Shown here piece after piece: positions 9,044-22,136 of a stretch of DNA of 64,000 nucleotides. The notes under the pieces were generated by a model. The model worked only from the letters and a program-made list of their open reading frames with translations, was not told the origin of the DNA and ran no database searches. This DNA is from a virus. Taxonomy: Duplodnaviria; Caudoviricetes. Position numbers and translations under genes: made by a program. Every line of letters begins with the position of its first letter. Position 1 is the first letter of the stretch. Location: positions 1-64,000 of the IMG/VR virus record IMGVR_UViG_3300025751_000015, one strand, 5' to 3'.

Positions 9044-10498
9044 TTGAACACTGATCTAACAAAAGAACAAAAAGACTACGCTATATTTTTGCCAGCGATC
9101 AGTGGTTTCTATGCGACTTTCATCGGTAAACAACGTAGAGAAGAATATGTAGACAAAAGTCGTATTCCTTTTCCTAACAACGAGATGGAAGGTCTTAATT
9201 GGTTCAACAAAAAAGACGGACTATTCAATTATCATTGGAGTCTGTATTCAGCAGGACACGCTGAATTAGATATCAATAAAGACGCACCTAAAGAACTTAT
9301 GATTCGTGAACGTGATCGCGAAAACAGTTGGTTGCTTGGTGACTCAGGTGGATTCCAGATTGGTAAAGGTGTATGGGAAGGTGATTGGAAAGATCCTAAC
9401 TGTCCTAAGGCTAAAAAGAAGCGTGAGCAGGTTCTTGCGTGGATGGATGCCTACATGGACTACGGTATGATCCTTGATATTCCTGCCTGGGTAGCACGTT
9501 CACCTGCAGGCGCAAAAGCAACAGGTATTGACAACTATCAAGATGCCGTTAATGCTACACGTATTAACAATGATTACTTTATGAAGAATCGTACAGGTTC
9601 TTGTAAGTTCTTAAACGTACTACAAGGTGAAAATCACGCTGATGCAGAAGATTGGTATCAGCAAATGAAAGACTACTGTGATCCTAAAAAATACACAGAT
9701 CACTTTAATGGTTGGTCGATGGGTGGTCAGAATATGTGTGATATTCATCTTGTGCTAAAGAGATTGGTAGCACTACGCTTCGATGGTTTGCTAGAAAAAG
9801 GCAAACACGACTTCATGCACTTCTTGGGTACATCAAAACTAGAATGGGCAACCTTACTTACAGATGTACAAAGAGCAGTTCGCAAGTATCACAATGAAAA
9901 CTTTACTATTACATTTGACTGTGCTAGTCCGTTCCTAGCAACAGCAAATGGTCAAATATATTGTGAACTTGAAACTAAAGATAGAAGCAAGTGGGTTTAC
10001 AGAATGGTTCCAAGCATTGACGATAAAGCACTTGCAACAGATACAACACCGTTTGGTCAAGCATTTGTGCGTGAAGGGAAACACGGAAGTTTTAAAGATT
10101 CTCCAATCACACAAAATTTACAAGCAAAAGATGTTTGTATATATGCACCAGGCGACCTAAATAAAATAGGCAAAGAAGGAAGAACAAGTTGGGATAGTTT
10201 TTCATATGCTATCCAGATGGGTCATAATGTATGGAGTCACATTAATGCAGTACAAGAAGCAAACAGACAGTACGATACTGGAATCGTTCCAAACATGCTT
10301 GTTGAAGAATCATTTAACAGGGTATTTTTTAGAGATGTTGTGGAAGCAATATTTGCAACATCAAATAGAGACGAAGCAGAAGCAGTTATAGAAGAGTTTT
10401 CGAGATTCTGGATGTCAATTATTGGCACTAGAGGAGCAACAGGTAAAAAAACCGTAAACGCAAGTACGCAATATGCGAACTTATTTGAGGAGGTATAA
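9044..10498 (+). CDS. dpdA: TGT-fold transglycosylase, DpdA-like (7-deazaguanine insertion into DNA)
   Basis: LLGDSGGFQIG (TGT DSGGFQ motif), MILDIP, VLQG, GWSMGG, HFLG and ITFDCASP; clustered with folE, queD-like, queE and yhhQ. Confidence 0.8.
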   Translation: MNTDLTKEQKDYAIFLPAISGFYATFIGKQRREEYVDKSRIPFPNNEMEGLNWFNKKDGLFNYHWSLYSAGHAELDINKDAPKELMIRERDRENSWLLGDSGGFQIGKGVWEGDWKDPNCPKAKKKREQVLAWMDAYMDYGMILDIPAWVARSPAGAKATGIDNYQDAVNATRINNDYFMKNRTGSCKFLNVLQGENHADAEDWYQQMKDYCDPKKYTDHFNGWSMGGQNMCDIHLVLKRLVALRFDGLLEKGKHDFMHFLGTSKLEWATLLTDVQRAVRKYHNENFTITFDCASPFLATANGQIYCELETKDRSKWVYRMVPSIDDKALATDTTPFGQAFVREGKHGSFKDSPITQNLQAKDVCIYAPGDLNKIGKEGRTSWDSFSYAIQMGHNVWSHINAVQEANRQYDTGIVPNMLVEESFNRVFFRDVVEAIFATSNRDEAEAVIEEFSRFWMSIIGTRGATGKKTVNASTQYANLFEEV

Positions 10499-10499
10499 T

Positions 10500-10706
10500 A
10501 TGACCACAATTGAAAAACTAAAAAACAGACTACAAAGTCTAAAAGAGCAACATCATTTAGAGCATCAAAAGGTTGAAGCCGCTGAAGCAGAAAATGTTGC
10601 TGAGAAATATCTTACAGAAATGAAAAAGAAAAAACTTGCTCTTAAAGACGAAATGTGGAAAGTTGAACTTGAAATTGTTTCTATGGAGGCAAGTAATGAA
10701 GCGTGA
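10500..10706 (+). CDS. Small coiled-coil protein, DUF465/YdcH-like
   Basis: L..LKEQH..L...V.......MKKKKLALKDE pattern; start revised to ATG 10500 after GAGGAGG. Confidence 0.55.
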   Translation: MTTIEKLKNRLQSLKEQHHLEHQKVEAAEAENVAEKYLTEMKKKKLALKDEMWKVELEIVSMEASNEA

Positions 10707-11223
10707 CTACGCTGATGGTGTAAAAGATGATGTAGTATACTTTACAGGTTATGAAGTAGAAAAAACACCTGCGTATGAAATGGACACACTATTTGTTGTA
10801 GGATGTCGTCCACTAGAAGAAGTTCTTGATAAAGCAAAACAACATCACGTAGATCATATCTATCTTGGTGCGAACCATAGTTTTGTACCCAAAGAAGATT
10901 GGGAAGATCTAGTATTAGGATTGCTTGATGCTAAATCCGAATTAGGAACACAATATTTGGTTACACTAGATTATGATGTAAAATATCATGAATGGATCCT
11001 TGAAACAGGAATGACTGAAAGACATAATTTTATTCCTATGATAAGTGTAAAACTTCCGTATGTTAACCAACTCGGTTATAATGCTTGTATCAAGATAGAT
11101 GACGCCGACTTTAAACATTCTAATCCCGGAGTTTGGATACATCAAGTACACGACTTGTTAGATAGGAATAAATTTACAGATTGGTCAAAGTACGAAAATG
11201 ACAGTCCATCAGAAGTATCATAG
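10696..11223 (+). CDS. Hypothetical alpha/beta protein in the deazaguanine cluster
   Basis: ATG at 10696 after GGAGG (revised from 10636); motifs TLFVVG, HIYLGANHSF and IKIDD..F..SNPGVW. Confidence 0.7.
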   Translation: MKRDYADGVKDDVVYFTGYEVEKTPAYEMDTLFVVGCRPLEEVLDKAKQHHVDHIYLGANHSFVPKEDWEDLVLGLLDAKSELGTQYLVTLDYDVKYHEWILETGMTERHNFIPMISVKLPYVNQLGYNACIKIDDADFKHSNPGVWIHQVHDLLDRNKFTDWSKYENDSPSEVS

Positions 11224-11755
11224 ATATCTAAATCTACCGTTTGAAGTAGATAAGCCTTTGATTTTTAAAAAGGATCCTGACAAAATCCAACATATTGAAT
11301 TAAAGGAAAAATTTGTTCCTGTAAAAGTAAGAGAATGGTTAAAAAGTTTAGGACTAAAATCTATGCATACAGAAGCATTTTTTACAGCACCAAATGATAA
11401 AATTTTTATACACTGTGATAGTCCTAAATTTGATGACCATGTAAAAATTAACTTTACTTGGGGGGATGAAAATAGTTATACCCGCTGGTGGAGTGTTAAA
11501 GACGAAAAGTTTTTAAAAAACGGTGGAACAGAATACGGAGCAGATATTTTAGTTGCTGATGAACATCATTGCAACATGACTTATCAACAAGTAATTAACA
11601 AACCTAGTTTGCTAAATGTAGGTAGATTACACAGTACCTATAACCCAACAGATGAAGGTAGATGGACATTGTGTATTGTTCCTTCGTTTATTGATAAAGA
11701 AGAATTTATTCATTGGGATATTGCAATAGAATTATTAAAAGAAGTAATAGTATGA
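11198..11755 (+). CDS. Putative Fe(II)/2OG oxygenase or cupin-fold protein
   Basis: IHCD (HxD) and distal LHST followed by R.TL, consistent with a DSBH facial triad. Confidence 0.45.
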   Translation: MTVHQKYHRYLNLPFEVDKPLIFKKDPDKIQHIELKEKFVPVKVREWLKSLGLKSMHTEAFFTAPNDKIFIHCDSPKFDDHVKINFTWGDENSYTRWWSVKDEKFLKNGGTEYGADILVADEHHCNMTYQQVINKPSLLNVGRLHSTYNPTDEGRWTLCIVPSFIDKEEFIHWDIAIELLKEVIV

Positions 11756-20773: not shown

Positions 20774-21192
20774 CCGACACACTAGAAAAAGCACAAGCAG
20801 AAGGTAGAGCACCTTGGACTAATGTTACATTTGATACCAAAGAGTTTGTTGTATACGAAGACATTTATCCTGTAACTCCCGGACATACGTTAGTTGTGCC
20901 AAAAGAGAACACAGTAGAAAATATACAAAAGTGTTTTAAGTTTGCCCAGGAAATGGGTAACATGAACATTGAAGCAGAAACTAATCCAATTACAGGATAC
21001 AACATTGGAATCAATATGGGTGCTAGTGCTGGACAAACAGTTATGTATCCACACGTACATTTGATTTTTAGACGTGACGGTGATATGGAAGATCCCCGAG
21101 GCGGTGTTCGTGGTGTAATTCCAGAAAAACAAAAGTATTCCAAAAAGGACGAATTACAAACGGACTTATTTGAAGATAATGTTGGATGTTAA
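20770..21192 (+). CDS. HIT-family nucleotide hydrolase
   Basis: PGHTLVVPK and GQTVMYPHVHLI (histidine-triad region; first His replaced by Tyr). Confidence 0.85.
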   Translation: MTDTLEKAQAEGRAPWTNVTFDTKEFVVYEDIYPVTPGHTLVVPKENTVENIQKCFKFAQEMGNMNIEAETNPITGYNIGINMGASAGQTVMYPHVHLIFRRDGDMEDPRGGVRGVIPEKQKYSKKDELQTDLFEDNVGC

Positions 21193-21195
21193 TGG

Positions 21196-21224
21196 TTGAC
21201 AAAAACCTAAATAAACACTATAAT
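21196..21224 (+). promoter_or_regulatory. Sigma70 promoter TTGACA-N17-TATAAT with TAAATA (21208-21213) in the spacer
   Basis: Perfect consensus upstream of queE. Confidence 0.8.
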
Positions 21225-21242
21225 ATATAATAGGAGTTGTAA

Positions 21243-22136
21243 ATGAAACTTAGATATAGTGAAGCATTTTATAGTGTACAAGGCGAAGGACGCTTCGTAG
21301 GCGTGCCTAGTGTATTCTTGCGTACATTTGGTTGTAACTTTCGTTGTATGAATTTTGGTTTGGACAAGCATCCAAACAGAGCAGAAAAATTAGAACAAGG
21401 CATCAAGTATAATCCTGAAGTAAAACAATTACTTGATGATGGTATTTTAGACAAGGTAAATAGATTTGAGGACTTGCCTATTGTTCACACAGGCTGTGAT
21501 ACATATGCAAGTATCTATCCAGAATTTAAGAAGTATATGAAAGACCATACAGTTGACGAAGTAGTTGATTATGTATTGAGTCTTACTCCACAACGAAAGT
21601 GGACAATGAATAATGGACAGGATGTTCATTTTATACTCACAGGCGGAGAGCCCTTGCTAGGGTGGCAACGCCTTTACATGGATCTATTTGAACACCCTGG
21701 CATGGGAGACTTAAAAAATGTTACATTTGAAACAAATACAACACAATCTCTTAGAGATGATTTCAGAGAGTGGCTCAACAACGAAAGAGCATTTCATATC
21801 ACTTGGTCGTGCAGTCCGAAACTTTCCGTTAGTGGAGAGCCTTGGGATACTGCTATCAAGCCTGATATTGCTAGGCAGTATTATGATGTACCTAATAGTA
21901 GTATGTATTTCAAATTTGTTGTGGCTACCGAAGATGATGTGGACGAAGTTACAAAAGCAGTTGAACAATACAGAGCAGAAGGAATCGATGTTCCAGTCTA
22001 TGTTATGCCGCTTGGGGGTAGGTCAGAAGAATACAAACTCAACACTAGAGGAGTCGCAACATTGGCAATGGAGCGAGGCTGGAGGTATACACCCAGACTA
22101 CACGTCGACATCTTCGGCAATGCTTGGGGAACTTGA
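21243..22136 (+). CDS. queE: Radical SAM 7-carboxy-7-deazaguanine synthase
   Basis: FYSVQGEG, FLRTFGCNFRC...GCDT, TGGEP, FETN, SPK and R.TPRLH. Confidence 0.88.
   Translation: MKLRYSEAFYSVQGEGRFVGVPSVFLRTFGCNFRCMNFGLDKHPNRAEKLEQGIKYNPEVKQLLDDGILDKVNRFEDLPIVHTGCDTYASIYPEFKKYMKDHTVDEVVDYVLSLTPQRKWTMNNGQDVHFILTGGEPLLGWQRLYMDLFEHPGMGDLKNVTFETNTTQSLRDDFREWLNNERAFHITWSCSPKLSVSGEPWDTAIKPDIARQYYDVPNSSMYFKFVVATEDDVDEVTKAVEQYRAEGIDVPVYVMPLGGRSEEYKLNTRGVATLAMERGWRYTPRLHVDIFGNAWGT

What the first reader, a model, noticed from the sequence alone, without database searches (positions are those of the whole stretch)
9044..22136. 7-deazaguanine DNA-modification locus with extra tailoring genes and no QueC/QueF in view
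Seen: DpdA/TGT-like, QueD-like, FolE, YhhQ and QueE genes. No QueC (PP-loop SGGxDS), QueF or Gat-QueC motif was found in this window. A glycosyltransferase, a class III aminotransferase, an oxygenase-like ORF and several unknowns are interleaved. Known: FolE-QueD-QueE make CDG from GTP; QueC gives preQ0; phage DpdA enzymes swap such bases for guanine in DNA to block restriction. Inference: the product may be CDG-derived, or built on imported preQ0/preQ1, and then decorated further, giving a possibly undescribed hypermodified guanine.
Basis: partly seen in the sequence, partly recalled or inferred. Interest (0 to 1): 0.85.

Follow-up and report, generated by a model that had tools for sequence, protein, structure and literature searches.

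The report
QueC-independent deazaguanine DNA module with sugar transferase
A fragment of an abundant marine jumbo phage carries the published gene set for swapping guanine in its DNA for 7-deazaguanine, which explains the missing QueC, plus a conserved sugar transferase and a rarer aminotransferase-transporter pair that the published pathway does not explain.

Summary
The genes are real and sit where stated, but one is misnamed. The "QueD-like" ORF (12941-13459) is DpdL, the predicted 7-carboxy-7-deazaguanine decarboxylase of Cellulophaga phage phiST. It has the LxxxHRHxF motif and is 54% identical to ACP17 DpdL.

The 484-aa ORF has a TGT fold (pLDDT 92.6; Z 18-19.5) with invariant GDSGGFQ and FDC motifs. 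FolE, QueE, YhhQ, a GT4-type glycosyltransferase and a class III aminotransferase are confirmed.

QueC is absent from the 84-kb record. It is also absent from four complete DpdL-bearing genomes, so its absence is a trait of the pathway. A true QueD lies about 48-54 kb upstream in relatives, beyond this contig's end.

Most likely pathway: GTP to CDG to 7-deazaguanine, then exchange into DNA. This is a known kind (Cui et al. 2023).

Three things remain unexplained:
- The glycosyltransferase, found in 35 of 35 relatives and beside DpdL in six phage lineages.
- A conserved 175-aa protein of no known family.
- The aminotransferase-YhhQ pair, found in a minority of relatives.

They leave room for a decorated base, but nothing here shows one. 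This scan has already reported the same module in at least 61 other genomes.

The parts
5593..8262 (+). Family B DNA polymerase. This is context: the modification module starts right after the replication genes.
   Evidence: PF00136 2.8e-34 and PF03104 1.5e-16. The same order, PolB then a 243-aa protein then the DpdA-like gene, is seen in PA5oct and in marine relatives.
8301..9032 (+). 243-aa protein of unknown function (phrog_12062). It always lies just upstream of the DpdA-like gene. It is annotated as a virion 'structural protein' in PA5oct and was called clamp-like by a first-stage note.
   Evidence: phrog_12062 1.7e-36. 36% identical to PA5oct EST35_0314. Present in 32 of 35 relatives. 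Clamp identity was not tested.
9044..10498 (+). DpdA-like transglycosylase with a TGT fold, predicted to exchange guanine in DNA for a 7-deazaguanine base. It is a divergent clade that no TGT or DpdA sequence model detects. Its C-terminal tail (462-484) is disordered and ends in YANLFEEV.
   Evidence: AF2 pLDDT 92.6, pTM 0.92. Foldseek PDB top 50 are all TGT, E about 2e-7. VIA Z 18-19.5 over about 300 residues. D100, S101, G103, D145, H259 and D292 are invariant in 57 homologues. hhalign against the ACP17 424-aa protein gives 96.6% probability. No Pfam, NCBIfam or PADLOC hit.
10473..10706 (+). Small DUF465 protein, variable among relatives.
   Evidence: PF04325 8.4e-7. Present in 11 of 80 related loci by tblastn. 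The same Pfam family is called at this position in L087 and L095.
10696..11223 (+). Conserved 175-aa core protein of no known family. The longest ORF runs from 10636; the probable start is 10696.
   Evidence: Present in 35 of 35 relatives. Homologues lie next to FolE/DpdA in ACP17 and elsewhere in PA5oct. No Pfam or PDB match, even with a 17-sequence profile. The Atlas holds the sequence from residue 21 on.
11198..11755 (+). 185-aa ORF specific to this window. It belongs to a phage-only protein family and has weak 2OG-oxygenase-like leads.
   Evidence: Absent from all 80 related loci. The Atlas cluster is viral; its nearest named clusters are 2OG-FeII_Oxy_3 and Asp_Arg_Hydrox at 0.87-0.88, which are leads only.
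11755..12990 (+). Class III PLP aminotransferase, an accessory gene. When present it always sits between the 175-aa gene and dpdL.
   Evidence: PF00202 6.5e-28. Best PDB matches are ArgD at 2.5e-20 and BioA at about 3e-14, with the FGKAL lysine aligned to the PLP lysine. Present in 14 of 80 loci, in two divergent sub-lineages. It forms a phage-restricted clade of 19 clusters.
12941..13459 (+). DpdL, a T-fold QueD paralogue and the predicted 7-carboxy-7-deazaguanine decarboxylase. The probable start is near 13016.
   Evidence: The motif LGYPHRHIF fits LxxxHRHxF of DpdL, against CxxxHGH of QueD. tblastn gives 54% identity to ACP17 DpdL, 60% to PA5oct and 31% to phiST gp040. The alignment groups it with DpdL (55-66% identity; 34% to phiST) rather than with true QueDs (17-19%). 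No PF01242 hit.
13466..13943 (+). One or two small overlapping ORFs of unknown function (13466-13699 and 13518-13943).
   Evidence: tblastn finds the 77-aa frame in 48 of 80 loci and the 141-aa frame in 7 of 80. No family match.
13936..15036 (+). GT4-type (GT-B fold) glycosyltransferase and a constant member of the module. Its acceptor is unknown.
   Evidence: AF2 pLDDT 70.9. Foldseek top hits are BshA, glycogen synthase, Gtf3, PglA and MshA, E 2e-7 to 1e-6, TM about 0.5. E273-x7-E281 is invariant across five phage lineages. Present in 35 of 35 relatives. It lies next to DpdL in Phosso, PA5oct, ACP17, BUDD, X1 and BCSR5.
15076..15762 (+). GTP cyclohydrolase I (FolE), the first step from GTP.
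   Evidence: PF01227 2e-40. phrog_2197 3e-46. Present in 34 of 35 relatives.
15778..16434 (+). Membrane transporter of the YhhQ/Vut_1 family (preQ0/preQ1 transporter family). It is an accessory gene that travels with the aminotransferase.
   Evidence: PF02592 3.3e-20. Present in 8 of 80 loci. Associated with the aminotransferase in 53 fully covered loci: table [[4,2],[1,46]], Fisher p 2.5e-4, loci not independent.
17385..17888 (+). Conserved 167-aa protein (phrog_4786, labelled 'cysteine dioxygenase'; HDHPW motif). Its role is unknown.
   Evidence: phrog_4786 1.8e-34. No Pfam hit. Present in 32 of 35 relatives.
18332..18892 (+). Purine phosphoribosyltransferase (HGPRT/Gpt-like), a core member. 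Inferred role: return guanine released from DNA to GMP.
   Evidence: PF00156 8e-9. PDB matches are HGPRT and purine PRTases at 6e-7. Present in 35 of 35 relatives.
19445..19849 (+). Small HhH-GPD-like protein, a frequent companion.
   Evidence: PF00730 8e-5, below the cut-off. PF00730 is recorded for the L087 homologue. Present in 21 of 35 relatives. Phosso has an annotated 'glycosylase' next to its DpdL.
20761..21192 (+). HIT-family nucleotide hydrolase or transferase, a core member of unknown role.
   Evidence: PF01230 9.6e-12. Present in 33 of 35 relatives.
21243..22136 (+). QueE (7-carboxy-7-deazaguanine synthase, radical SAM), a variant with about 49 residues inserted between the second and third cluster cysteines.
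   Evidence: phrog_2076 1e-51. The N-terminus matches QueE TIGRFAMs at about 1e-9. The alignment with PA5oct, Phosso, ACP17 and phiST QueE shows Q13, E15, R27, C31, C35 and the TGG.P motif (T133, G134, G135, P137) invariant, with C85 in GCDT.

Best explanation
This is the guanine-replacement module of an uncultured marine jumbo phage related to Pseudomonas phage PA5oct. It follows the QueC-independent, DpdL-type route.

Steps of the pathway:
- FolE opens GTP.
- A true QueD makes CPH4. It is not on this contig; in relatives it lies about 48-54 kb upstream. The host enzyme could also serve.
- QueE makes 7-carboxy-7-deazaguanine (CDG).
- The divergent TGT-fold DpdA-like enzyme, encoded right after the polymerase, exchanges guanine in phage DNA for that base. 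This blocks restriction at G-containing sites.
- The purine phosphoribosyltransferase probably returns the released guanine to GMP, and so to GTP.

PreQ0 and preQ1 are not intermediates, so QueC and QueF are not needed.

What is shown here: the family or fold of each protein, the catalytic motifs, the conservation of the set, and the absence of QueC.

What is inferred: every enzymatic step, DNA as the target, and the identity of the final base.

The GT4 glycosyltransferase and the 175-aa protein are constant members with no role in the published pathway. The aminotransferase-YhhQ pair is an optional add-on.
For: - TGT fold with invariant GDSGGFQ and FDC aspartates.
- DpdL motif, and homology to the DpdL of phiST and ACP17. 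phiST DNA has every G replaced by dDG, and phiST has no QueC.
- FolE and QueE are confirmed.
- QueC is absent from this record, from five large related contigs (two weak hits there, both below the cut-off), and from four complete DpdL-bearing genomes.
- A true QueD is present in all four complete genomes. It lies 51-54 kb upstream of the DpdA-like gene in PA5oct and about 48 kb upstream in relative G003. This contig has only 9 kb upstream.
- The core set is conserved in 31-35 of 35 relatives.
[quoted passage not shown] The authors read this as a modified G (PMC12191111).
- A C-terminal LF peptide like the polymerase's own is enriched among homologues: 19 of 57, against a 6.7% background. The gene also sits in the replication block. 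Both point to DNA as the target.
Against: - DpdL has never been shown to decarboxylate CDG. Co-expressing dpdL and dpdA from phiST or ACP17 in E. coli gave no dDG.
- No virion DNA of this lineage, nor of PA5oct or ACP17, has been analysed chemically in any paper I found.
- The DpdA-like protein is not detected by the Pfam TGT model or by any PADLOC model, a library that covers the Dpd system. It also lacks the CxCxxC zinc motif.
- It is only weakly related to phiST DpdA3 (hhalign 77%).
- A strictly conserved, apparently active glycosyltransferase is not needed for plain dDG. phiST, the only DpdL-bearing lineage in the reports I read whose DNA was shown to carry dDG, has no homologue of it at tblastn E 1e-3.
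- QueD was not seen in this genome.
Confidence: 0.7

Rival explanations
1. The final DNA base is not plain 7-deazaguanine but a sugar-bearing derivative. The conserved GT4 enzyme would transfer a hexose from an NDP-sugar to the deazaguanine, either in DNA or as the free base. Possible products are a C-glycoside at the electron-rich C7 or an ester on CDG. The aminotransferase would then tailor the product in some lineages.
For: - GT-B fold with an invariant EX7E motif.
- Present in 35 of 35 relatives, and beside DpdL in six separate cultured-phage lineages.
- ACP17 keeps the GT between dpdA and dpdL yet has no ThyA-family gene that could supply a hydroxylated pyrimidine acceptor.
- Relatives carry sugar-nucleotide genes beside the module: a cytidylyltransferase, PMM and an epimerase in L087, and PMM next to QueD in G003.
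- dDG could not be reconstituted from DpdL plus DpdA alone.
- The GT diverges faster than its neighbours: median 54% identity, against 87% for DpdA and 78% for DpdL. That fits changing specificity.
Against: - 7-Deazaguanine has no hydroxyl or amine at C7 to receive a sugar.
- I found no chemical precedent for a glycosylated purine in DNA in any paper I could search.
- The GT model has only moderate confidence (pLDDT 70.9).
- The acceptor could be a protein, a lipid or a small molecule.
- phiST makes dDG without such a GT.
Confidence: 0.3
2. The phage imports preQ0 or preQ1 through YhhQ, or starts from CDG. It then builds a new hypermodified guanine using the aminotransferase, an oxygenase and other interleaved genes. 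One variant is a salvage shunt: imported preQ1 is deaminated by the aminotransferase to 7-formyl-7-deazaguanine and fed towards DpdL.
For: - YhhQ belongs to the preQ0/preQ1 transporter family (PMC6884629).
- The aminotransferase and YhhQ travel together in two divergent sub-lineages.
- The aminotransferase always sits directly upstream of dpdL.
- The PLP lysine is in place.
Against: - The pair is missing from 46 of 53 fully covered relatives, which keep the whole core. It is therefore optional.
- The 185-aa 'oxygenase-like' ORF occurs in none of the 80 relatives, and its fold assignment is only a lead.
- No reductase or dehydrogenase that would link CDG with an aldehyde is in view.
- The aminotransferase has no diagnostic match to any enzyme of known substrate.
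Confidence: 0.15
3. The base enters DNA before replication, not after. The purine phosphoribosyltransferase would turn 7-deazaguanine into its ribonucleotide, as ToyH does in toyocamycin synthesis. Host kinases and ribonucleotide reductase would make the dNTP, and the phage polymerase would incorporate it. The TGT-like enzyme would play a minor or editing role.
For: - A purine PRTase is present in 35 of 35 relatives, and a HIT nucleotide enzyme in 33 of 35.
- Phages with the phiST-type DpdA3 replace every G, which is easier to picture at the dNTP level.
- The free ADG nucleoside was reported in cells infected by phage CP220.
Against: - A TGT-fold enzyme with intact catalytic aspartates is strictly conserved next to the polymerase.
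- No nucleotide kinase or dGTPase lies in this module.
- PA5oct has only a weak N-terminal PRTase remnant there.
- The published view is that all known 7-deazaguanine DNA modifications are made after replication.
- The ToyH parallel comes from memory and was not tested.
Confidence: 0.1
4. The TGT-like enzyme modifies tRNA, and the cluster supplies a queuosine-type precursor for translation rather than for DNA.
For: - The fold matches are all tRNA-guanine transglycosylases.
Against: - The protein lacks the CxCxxC zinc motif in all 57 homologues.
- The Pfam TGT model does not find it.
- It sits in the replication block and carries a tail like the polymerase's.
- The pathway lacks QueC, QueF, QueA and QueG, so it cannot make preQ1 or queuosine.
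- PA5oct DNA resists restriction.
Confidence: 0.03

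Closest known systems
DpdL/DpdA3 system of Cellulophaga phage phiST, which gives 2'-deoxy-7-deazaguanosine (dDG) (Cui, Hutinet et al., NAR 2023, PMC10516641)
   Same: Both have FolE, QueE, a DpdL with the LxxxHRHxF motif and a TGT-fold transglycosylase, with no QueC or QueF. In both, the genes lie beside the replication genes. The logic is the same: a CDG-derived base is exchanged into DNA.
   Different: - The transglycosylase here is 484 aa and only marginally related to the 259-aa phiST DpdA3 (hhalign 77%, partial; Foldseek E 9e-4).
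- phiST has no homologue of the GT4 enzyme, the 175-aa protein, the PRTase or the HIT protein at tblastn level.
- phiST instead has a MazG-like and a kinase-like gene.
- QueD is adjacent in phiST and distant here.
Deazaguanine locus of Pseudomonas jumbo phage PA5oct (Wroclawvirus). Its DNA resists restriction at G-containing sites; the base is chemically undefined (PMC12191111; also noted in PMC7824862).
   Same: - Same backbone: PolB, then the 243-aa protein, DpdA-like (36% identity), GT (41%), DpdL (60%), QueE (29%) and a 5'-3' exonuclease.
- QueC is absent.
- QueD lies about 50 kb upstream.
   Different: - The PA5oct locus is much shorter: about 2.8 kb between the DpdA-like gene and QueE, against 10.7 kb here.
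- PA5oct has no FolE, YhhQ, aminotransferase, HIT or full PRTase in that stretch.
- Its homologue of the 175-aa protein lies 28 kb away.
Acidovorax phage ACP17. Its DpdL and DpdA were tested without success in E. coli by Cui et al.
   Same: The gene order is QueD, FolE, the 175-aa homologue, DpdA, GT (36% identity), DpdL (54%), QueE. It has no QueC.
   Different: - Its DpdA is 424 aa and only distantly related (hhalign 96.6%, E 5e-10, over about 180 columns).
- Its QueE has the canonical CX3CX2C motif.
- It has no PRTase, HIT, YhhQ or aminotransferase in the locus.
Bacterial tRNA-guanine transglycosylase (TGT) and bacterial or phage DpdA1/DpdA2
   Same: They share the TIM-barrel TGT fold, a DSGG motif and an FDC-type aspartate. 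The nearest named viral model is an uncharacterised protein of Vibrio phage nt-1 (E 8e-12), a phage whose DpdA2 was described in 2019.
   Different: - Only 12-15% identity to TGT.
- No zinc motif.
- No match to the Pfam TGT model or to any PADLOC model.
- Those enzymes insert preQ1 or preQ0, which this phage cannot make.

Membership tests
DpdA / TGT superfamily (base-exchanging transglycosylase) | TGT TIM-barrel fold | tested here: met
   AF2 pLDDT 92.6. Foldseek top 50 are all TGT. VIA Z 18-19.5, about 300 residues aligned, rmsd 4.3-4.8.
DpdA / TGT superfamily (base-exchanging transglycosylase) | Catalytic aspartates in the DSGGFQ and FDC motifs | tested here: met
   D100, S101, G103 and D292 are invariant in 57 homologues. 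The motifs GDSGGFQ and TFDCASP can be read directly in the sequence. Matching them to the TGT residues D102 and D280 rests on my memory, not on a structural superposition read residue by residue.
DpdA / TGT superfamily (base-exchanging transglycosylase) | Match to curated sequence models (Pfam PF01702; models of the PADLOC defence library, which covers the Dpd system) | tested here: not met
   No hit at E up to 1 in the genome scan, and none in Pfam, NCBIfam or PADLOC scans of the protein.
DpdA / TGT superfamily (base-exchanging transglycosylase) | Zinc site CxCxxC...H | tested here: not met
   No CxCxxC in any of the 57 homologues. The window protein's cysteines are scattered, at 120, 187, 212, 232, 293, 307 and 365.
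DpdA / TGT superfamily (base-exchanging transglycosylase) | Acts on DNA and inserts a 7-deazaguanine | not testable with these tools
   The support is indirect: its place in the replication block, linkage to FolE, QueE and DpdL, and the restriction resistance of PA5oct DNA.
DpdL (predicted CDG decarboxylase, QueD paralogue) | Signature LxxxHRHxF in place of the CxxxHGH of QueD | tested here: met
   LGYPHRHIF is present. It aligns with the same motif in the L087, Phosso, ACP17 and phiST proteins (PA5oct has HFHYF there). True QueDs in the same alignment have C...HGY.
DpdL (predicted CDG decarboxylase, QueD paralogue) | Homology to the named members (phiST CGPG_00067/gp040, ACP17) | tested here: met
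   tblastn gives 54% identity to ACP17 (6e-35) and 31% to phiST (2e-8).
DpdL (predicted CDG decarboxylase, QueD paralogue) | Found with FolE, QueE and a DpdA, without QueC | tested here: met
DpdL (predicted CDG decarboxylase, QueD paralogue) | Decarboxylates CDG to 7-deazaguanine | not testable with these tools
   This has not been shown for any member in the literature either.
QueD (6-carboxytetrahydropterin synthase) | PF01242 match and a catalytic Cys in CxxxHGH | tested here: not met
   There is no PF01242 hit for the ORF or anywhere in the 84-kb record. Leu replaces the Cys. A true QueD exists in relatives 48-54 kb upstream.
QueE (CDG synthase, radical SAM) | QueE N-terminal motif, three cluster cysteines and a SAM-binding GGEP motif | tested here: met
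   phrog_2076 1e-51. QueE TIGRFAMs match residues 2-36. C31, C35 and C85 (in GCDT) and TGGEP all align with the PA5oct and phiST QueE. The spacing is unusual, CX3CX49C. The scores are below the curated TIGRFAM cut-offs.
GT4-type GT-B glycosyltransferase | GT-B two-Rossmann fold | tested here: met
   Foldseek hits are BshA, glycogen synthase, Gtf3, PglA and MshA, E 2e-7 to 1e-6, TM 0.45-0.56. The model confidence is moderate, pLDDT 70.9.
GT4-type GT-B glycosyltransferase | EX7E motif | tested here: met
   E273 and E281 are invariant in the window, L087, PA5oct, Phosso and ACP17 proteins. That EX7E marks retaining GT4 enzymes is from my own knowledge.
GT4-type GT-B glycosyltransferase | Pfam Glycos_transf_1 match | tested here: not met
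   E 0.19, 11.7 bits, against a cut-off of 26.4.
YhhQ / Vut_1 (preQ0/preQ1 transporter family) | PF02592 above the gathering score | tested here: met
   73.4 bits, against a cut-off of 27.2. The substrate was not tested.
Canonical preQ0 pathway (FolE-QueD-QueE-QueC) | QueC PP-loop ATPase present | tested here: not met
   There is no PF06508 match in the record. tblastn with a relative's QueC-like protein also finds nothing. QueC is absent from four complete related or analogous genomes. The record is only about 24% of a genome, so absence from the whole phage is not proven.

The most novel reading that the evidence does not exclude
The strictly conserved GT4 enzyme, and in this sub-lineage the aminotransferase-YhhQ pair, convert the inserted deazaguanine into a sugar-bearing or otherwise decorated purine in virion DNA. 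I found no such kind of DNA base in any paper I could search.
Probability: 0.3. Interest if true: 0.8.

Novelty: new variant of a known kind. Interest (0 to 1): 0.55.

Why it matters
**What is already known.** 7-Deazaguanine DNA modifications are a known anti-restriction strategy, and the QueC-independent DpdL route was published in 2023. The headline puzzle of the finding, the missing QueC, is therefore already explained.

**What is not explained.**
- The published route has never been reconstituted.
- This lineage shows that a glycosyltransferase, a 175-aa protein of no known family, a purine PRTase and a HIT enzyme are constant partners of DpdL and of a divergent DpdA clade that databases still call hypothetical.
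- If the glycosyltransferase acts on the base, these very abundant marine phages, and cultured ones such as PA5oct and ACP17, would carry a new class of DNA purine.

**Possible consequences.** A new DNA purine would affect restriction, sequencing chemistry and phage therapy.

**How to settle it.** The question is directly testable with phages already in culture.

Tried and rejected
- **Near-identical DNA.** A megablast search of the phage collection found nothing.
- **Sequence-only tests of the TGT-like protein.** phmmer against the PDB, a 57-sequence profile against the PDB, Pfam, NCBIfam and PADLOC all found nothing. Only the fold comparison worked.
- **phmmer of the DpdL and GT proteins against the PDB.** Nothing useful.
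- **The 175-aa core protein.** No Atlas hit, no Pfam match and no PDB match with a 17-sequence profile.
- **The 185-aa ORF.** BLASTP against the Asp/Arg-hydroxylase of relative G003 shows no similarity.
- **GT acting on hydroxylated pyrimidines** (T4 style or the 5hoC style of PMC13326640). I set this aside because no ThyA-family gene is in this record or in complete ACP17. The window has ThyX and a dCMP deaminase instead.
- **Supplementary tables of Cui et al.** They are not held, so I could not check how they class the ACP17 DpdA.
- **Weak QueC-like hits in relatives G003 and G005.** These led to a PP-loop protein inside a different gene cluster. It has no homologue in this genome.

Full report
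**What the window is.** The window is the first 64 kb of an 84,138-b linear IMG/VR viral record that CheckV rates 24% complete. That implies a phage genome of roughly 350 kb. Genes from 5.6 to 32 kb run on the + strand: a family B polymerase, the module under study, a 5'-3' exonuclease, ThyX and a dCMP deaminase. Baseplate and tail genes follow on the - strand. The nearest cultured relatives of the key proteins are the Pseudomonas jumbo phage PA5oct group, Sinorhizobium phage Phosso and a Vibrio jumbo phage, at 29-36% identity. Close relatives are very common in marine metagenomes, including TARA. At least 595 IMG/VR contigs encode the TGT-like protein, and one public contig reaches 343 kb.

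**Checking the observation.** FolE (PF01227, 2e-40), YhhQ/Vut_1 (PF02592, 3e-20), a class III aminotransferase (PF00202, 6.5e-28) and QueE (phrog_2076, 1e-51) are confirmed at the stated places.
- QueE aligns with the QueE of PA5oct, Phosso, ACP17 and phiST. Q13, E15, R27, C31, C35 and the TGG.P motif are invariant. Its third cysteine (C85, in GCDT) follows a 49-residue insert.
- The 484-aa ORF at 9044-10498 matches no sequence model. A 57-sequence alignment nevertheless gave a confident model (pLDDT 92.6). Its PDB matches are all tRNA-guanine transglycosylases: Foldseek E about 2e-7, VIA Z 18-19.5 over about 300 residues.
- D100, S101 and G103 of GDSGGFQ, D145, and D292 of TFDCASP are invariant.
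- The 366-aa ORF folds as a GT-B enzyme. Its best matches are GT4 members (BshA, glycogen synthase, Gtf3, PglA, MshA). It keeps an invariant E-x7-E in five phage lineages.
- No QueC, QueF, PTPS or Pfam-TGT match exists anywhere in the 84-kb record.

**The correction that changes the reading.** The 'QueD-like' ORF (12941-13459) is not QueD. Cui, Hutinet and co-workers defined DpdL as a QueD paralogue in which the motif CxxxHGH is replaced by LxxxHRHxF. They proposed it as the CDG decarboxylase that yields 7-deazaguanine (PMC10516641).
- The window protein reads LGYPHRHIF.
- It is 54% identical to the ACP17 DpdL and 31% to phiST gp040.
- In an alignment it groups with DpdL proteins (55-66% identity; 34% to phiST) and apart from three true QueDs (17-19%).
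- phiST encodes FolE, QueD, QueE, DpdL and a distant TGT homologue but no QueC. Every G in its DNA is replaced by 2'-deoxy-7-deazaguanosine.

The missing QueC is therefore the expected state of a known pathway.

**Is QueC merely off the contig?** I searched four complete genomes that carry DpdL: PA5oct, ACP17, Phosso and phiST. None has QueC. All four have a true QueD. In PA5oct the QueD genes lie 51-54 kb upstream of the DpdA-like gene. In the marine relative G003, a QueD (PF01242, 3e-15) lies about 48 kb upstream. This contig has only 9 kb upstream of its DpdA-like gene. A QueD just beyond its 5' end is thus the simplest expectation, though it is unproven.

**Core genes and accessory genes.** I mapped the window's proteins onto 80 related IMG/VR loci. 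Among the 35 loci with at least 9 kb downstream of the DpdA-like gene:

| Gene | Loci with it (of 35) |
|---|---|
| DpdA-like | 35 |
| 175-aa protein | 35 |
| DpdL | 35 |
| Glycosyltransferase | 35 |
| Purine PRTase | 35 |
| FolE | 34 |
| HIT protein | 33 |
| 167-aa phrog_4786 protein | 32 |
| QueE | 31 |
| HhH-GPD protein | 21 |
| ClpP | 8 |
| WYL_2 | 8 |
| Aminotransferase | 4 |
| YhhQ | 2 |

Across all 80 loci, the aminotransferase is in 14, YhhQ in 8, and the 185-aa and 217-aa ORFs in none. Most of what looked like interleaved tailoring genes is therefore lineage-specific cargo.

**The aminotransferase-YhhQ pair.** When present, the aminotransferase always sits between the 175-aa gene and dpdL. 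It co-occurs with YhhQ in two divergent sub-lineages: 75% and about 90% identity in one, 44% and 52% in the other. In 53 fully covered loci the table is [[4,2],[1,46]], Fisher p 2.5e-4. The loci are related, so the true number of independent events is small. The aminotransferase keeps its PLP lysine. Its nearest solved relatives are ArgD and BioA, and no substrate can be assigned. It forms a small phage-only clade.

**The glycosyltransferase is the real open point.** Besides the marine relatives, a homologue lies next to DpdL in Phosso, the PA5oct group, ACP17, Xanthomonas phages BUDD and X1, and Burkholderia phage BCSR5.
- ACP17 keeps it between dpdA and dpdL yet has no ThyA-family gene. Hydroxylated pyrimidines are thus an unlikely acceptor there.
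- Relatives carry sugar-nucleotide genes beside the module.
- Cui et al. do not mention a glycosyltransferase. They could not obtain dDG from DpdL plus DpdA alone.
- My literature searches found no glycosylated deazaguanine in DNA.
- On the other side, 7-deazaguanine offers no obvious acceptor group, and phiST makes dDG without this enzyme.

**Most likely mechanism.** GTP goes to H2NTP (FolE), to CPH4 (QueD, off-contig or from the host), to CDG (QueE), and to 7-deazaguanine (DpdL, predicted). The DpdA-like enzyme then exchanges that base for guanine in DNA.
- The PRTase resembles HGPRT/Gpt enzymes. I infer that it returns the excised guanine to GMP, and so to the GTP pool that feeds FolE.
- DNA rather than tRNA is the likely target for three reasons. 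The gene sits in the replication block. The protein lacks the TGT zinc motif in all 57 homologues. Its disordered C-terminus ends in an LF peptide like the polymerase's own, a feature enriched among homologues (19 of 57, against a 6.7% background).
- PA5oct DNA resists five restriction enzymes in a pattern that its authors assign to a modified G (PMC12191111).

Families, folds, motifs, conservation and the absence of QueC are shown here. Every catalytic step and the final base are inferred.

**Standing.** This is a new variant of a known kind. The DpdL-type system is published. PA5oct was noted in 2021 to have a deazaguanine system (PMC7824862). This scan has already reported the DpdA, DpdL and glycosyltransferase module in at least 61 other genomes. 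Those notes reach the same reading as mine, and I do not count them as evidence. Four things are particular to this window:
- the aminotransferase-YhhQ pairing;
- the demonstration that the 185-aa 'oxygenase' is not part of a conserved cassette;
- the constant PRTase and HIT partners;
- the evidence from complete genomes that QueC is truly dispensable and QueD is simply distant.

Noticed in passing
window 10430-10498 and 8224-8262: The DpdA-like protein ends in YANLFEEV and the polymerase ends in NNLFDFE. A [LMIF]F dipeptide lies in the last 10 residues of 19 of 57 DpdA-like homologues, against 6.7% of internal windows (binomial p 3e-9; the sequences are not independent). This suggests docking on a sliding clamp. 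A separate first-stage note covers it.
   Followed up: partly
L086 (relative G003, IMGVR_UViG_3300028384_000991, 63660-66863): A relative carries a four-gene block about 30 kb from its DpdA and on the opposite strand. The block holds a class III aminotransferase, a 236-aa PP-loop protein with SGGADS and a QueC-like C-terminal CxxC (PF06508 at 22 bits, exactly the cut-off), an Asp/Arg beta-hydroxylase and a radical SAM enzyme. This genome has no homologue of the PP-loop, hydroxylase or radical SAM proteins, and its own aminotransferase is only 23% identical to the one in the block. The block may be a second deazapurine-tailoring route in some members of the lineage.
   Followed up: partly
window 21333-21497: QueE has its three cluster cysteines spaced CX3CX49C. 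The insert lies between the second and third cysteine and is shared with the PA5oct QueE. phiST has a shorter insert at the same place, while ACP17 and Phosso have the canonical CX3CX2C.
   Followed up: partly
L087 6654-9234 and L092 95-1494: Relatives place sugar-nucleotide genes next to the module. In L087, PsiE, a cytidylyltransferase, a phosphomannomutase and an NDP-sugar epimerase/dehydratase lie between PolB and the 243-aa gene. In G003 the distant QueD sits beside a phosphomannomutase and a 232-aa protein with a DLD motif.
   Followed up: no
window 13936-15036 against related loci: Among relatives the glycosyltransferase is much more diverged (median 54% identity) than the DpdA-like protein (87%) or DpdL (78%). 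This would be expected if donor or acceptor specificity shifts between sub-lineages.
   Followed up: no
window 2348-3385, 4223-4762, 30692-31348: Other modification-type enzymes lie outside the module: a TauD-family dioxygenase, a Methyltransf_24 methyltransferase upstream of the polymerase, and a 2OG-Fe(II) oxygenase just before ThyX and the dCMP deaminase.
   Followed up: no
window 25230-26321 and 27796-29088: A MoxR-like AAA ATPase and a DUF2201 metallopeptidase/VWA protein form a pair, with an HNH endonuclease (26592-27104) between them.
   Followed up: no
window 16441-17094 and 19836-20570: There are two ORFs with no family match. The 217-aa one is absent from all 80 related loci. The 244-aa acidic one is present in 21 of 80.
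   Followed up: no
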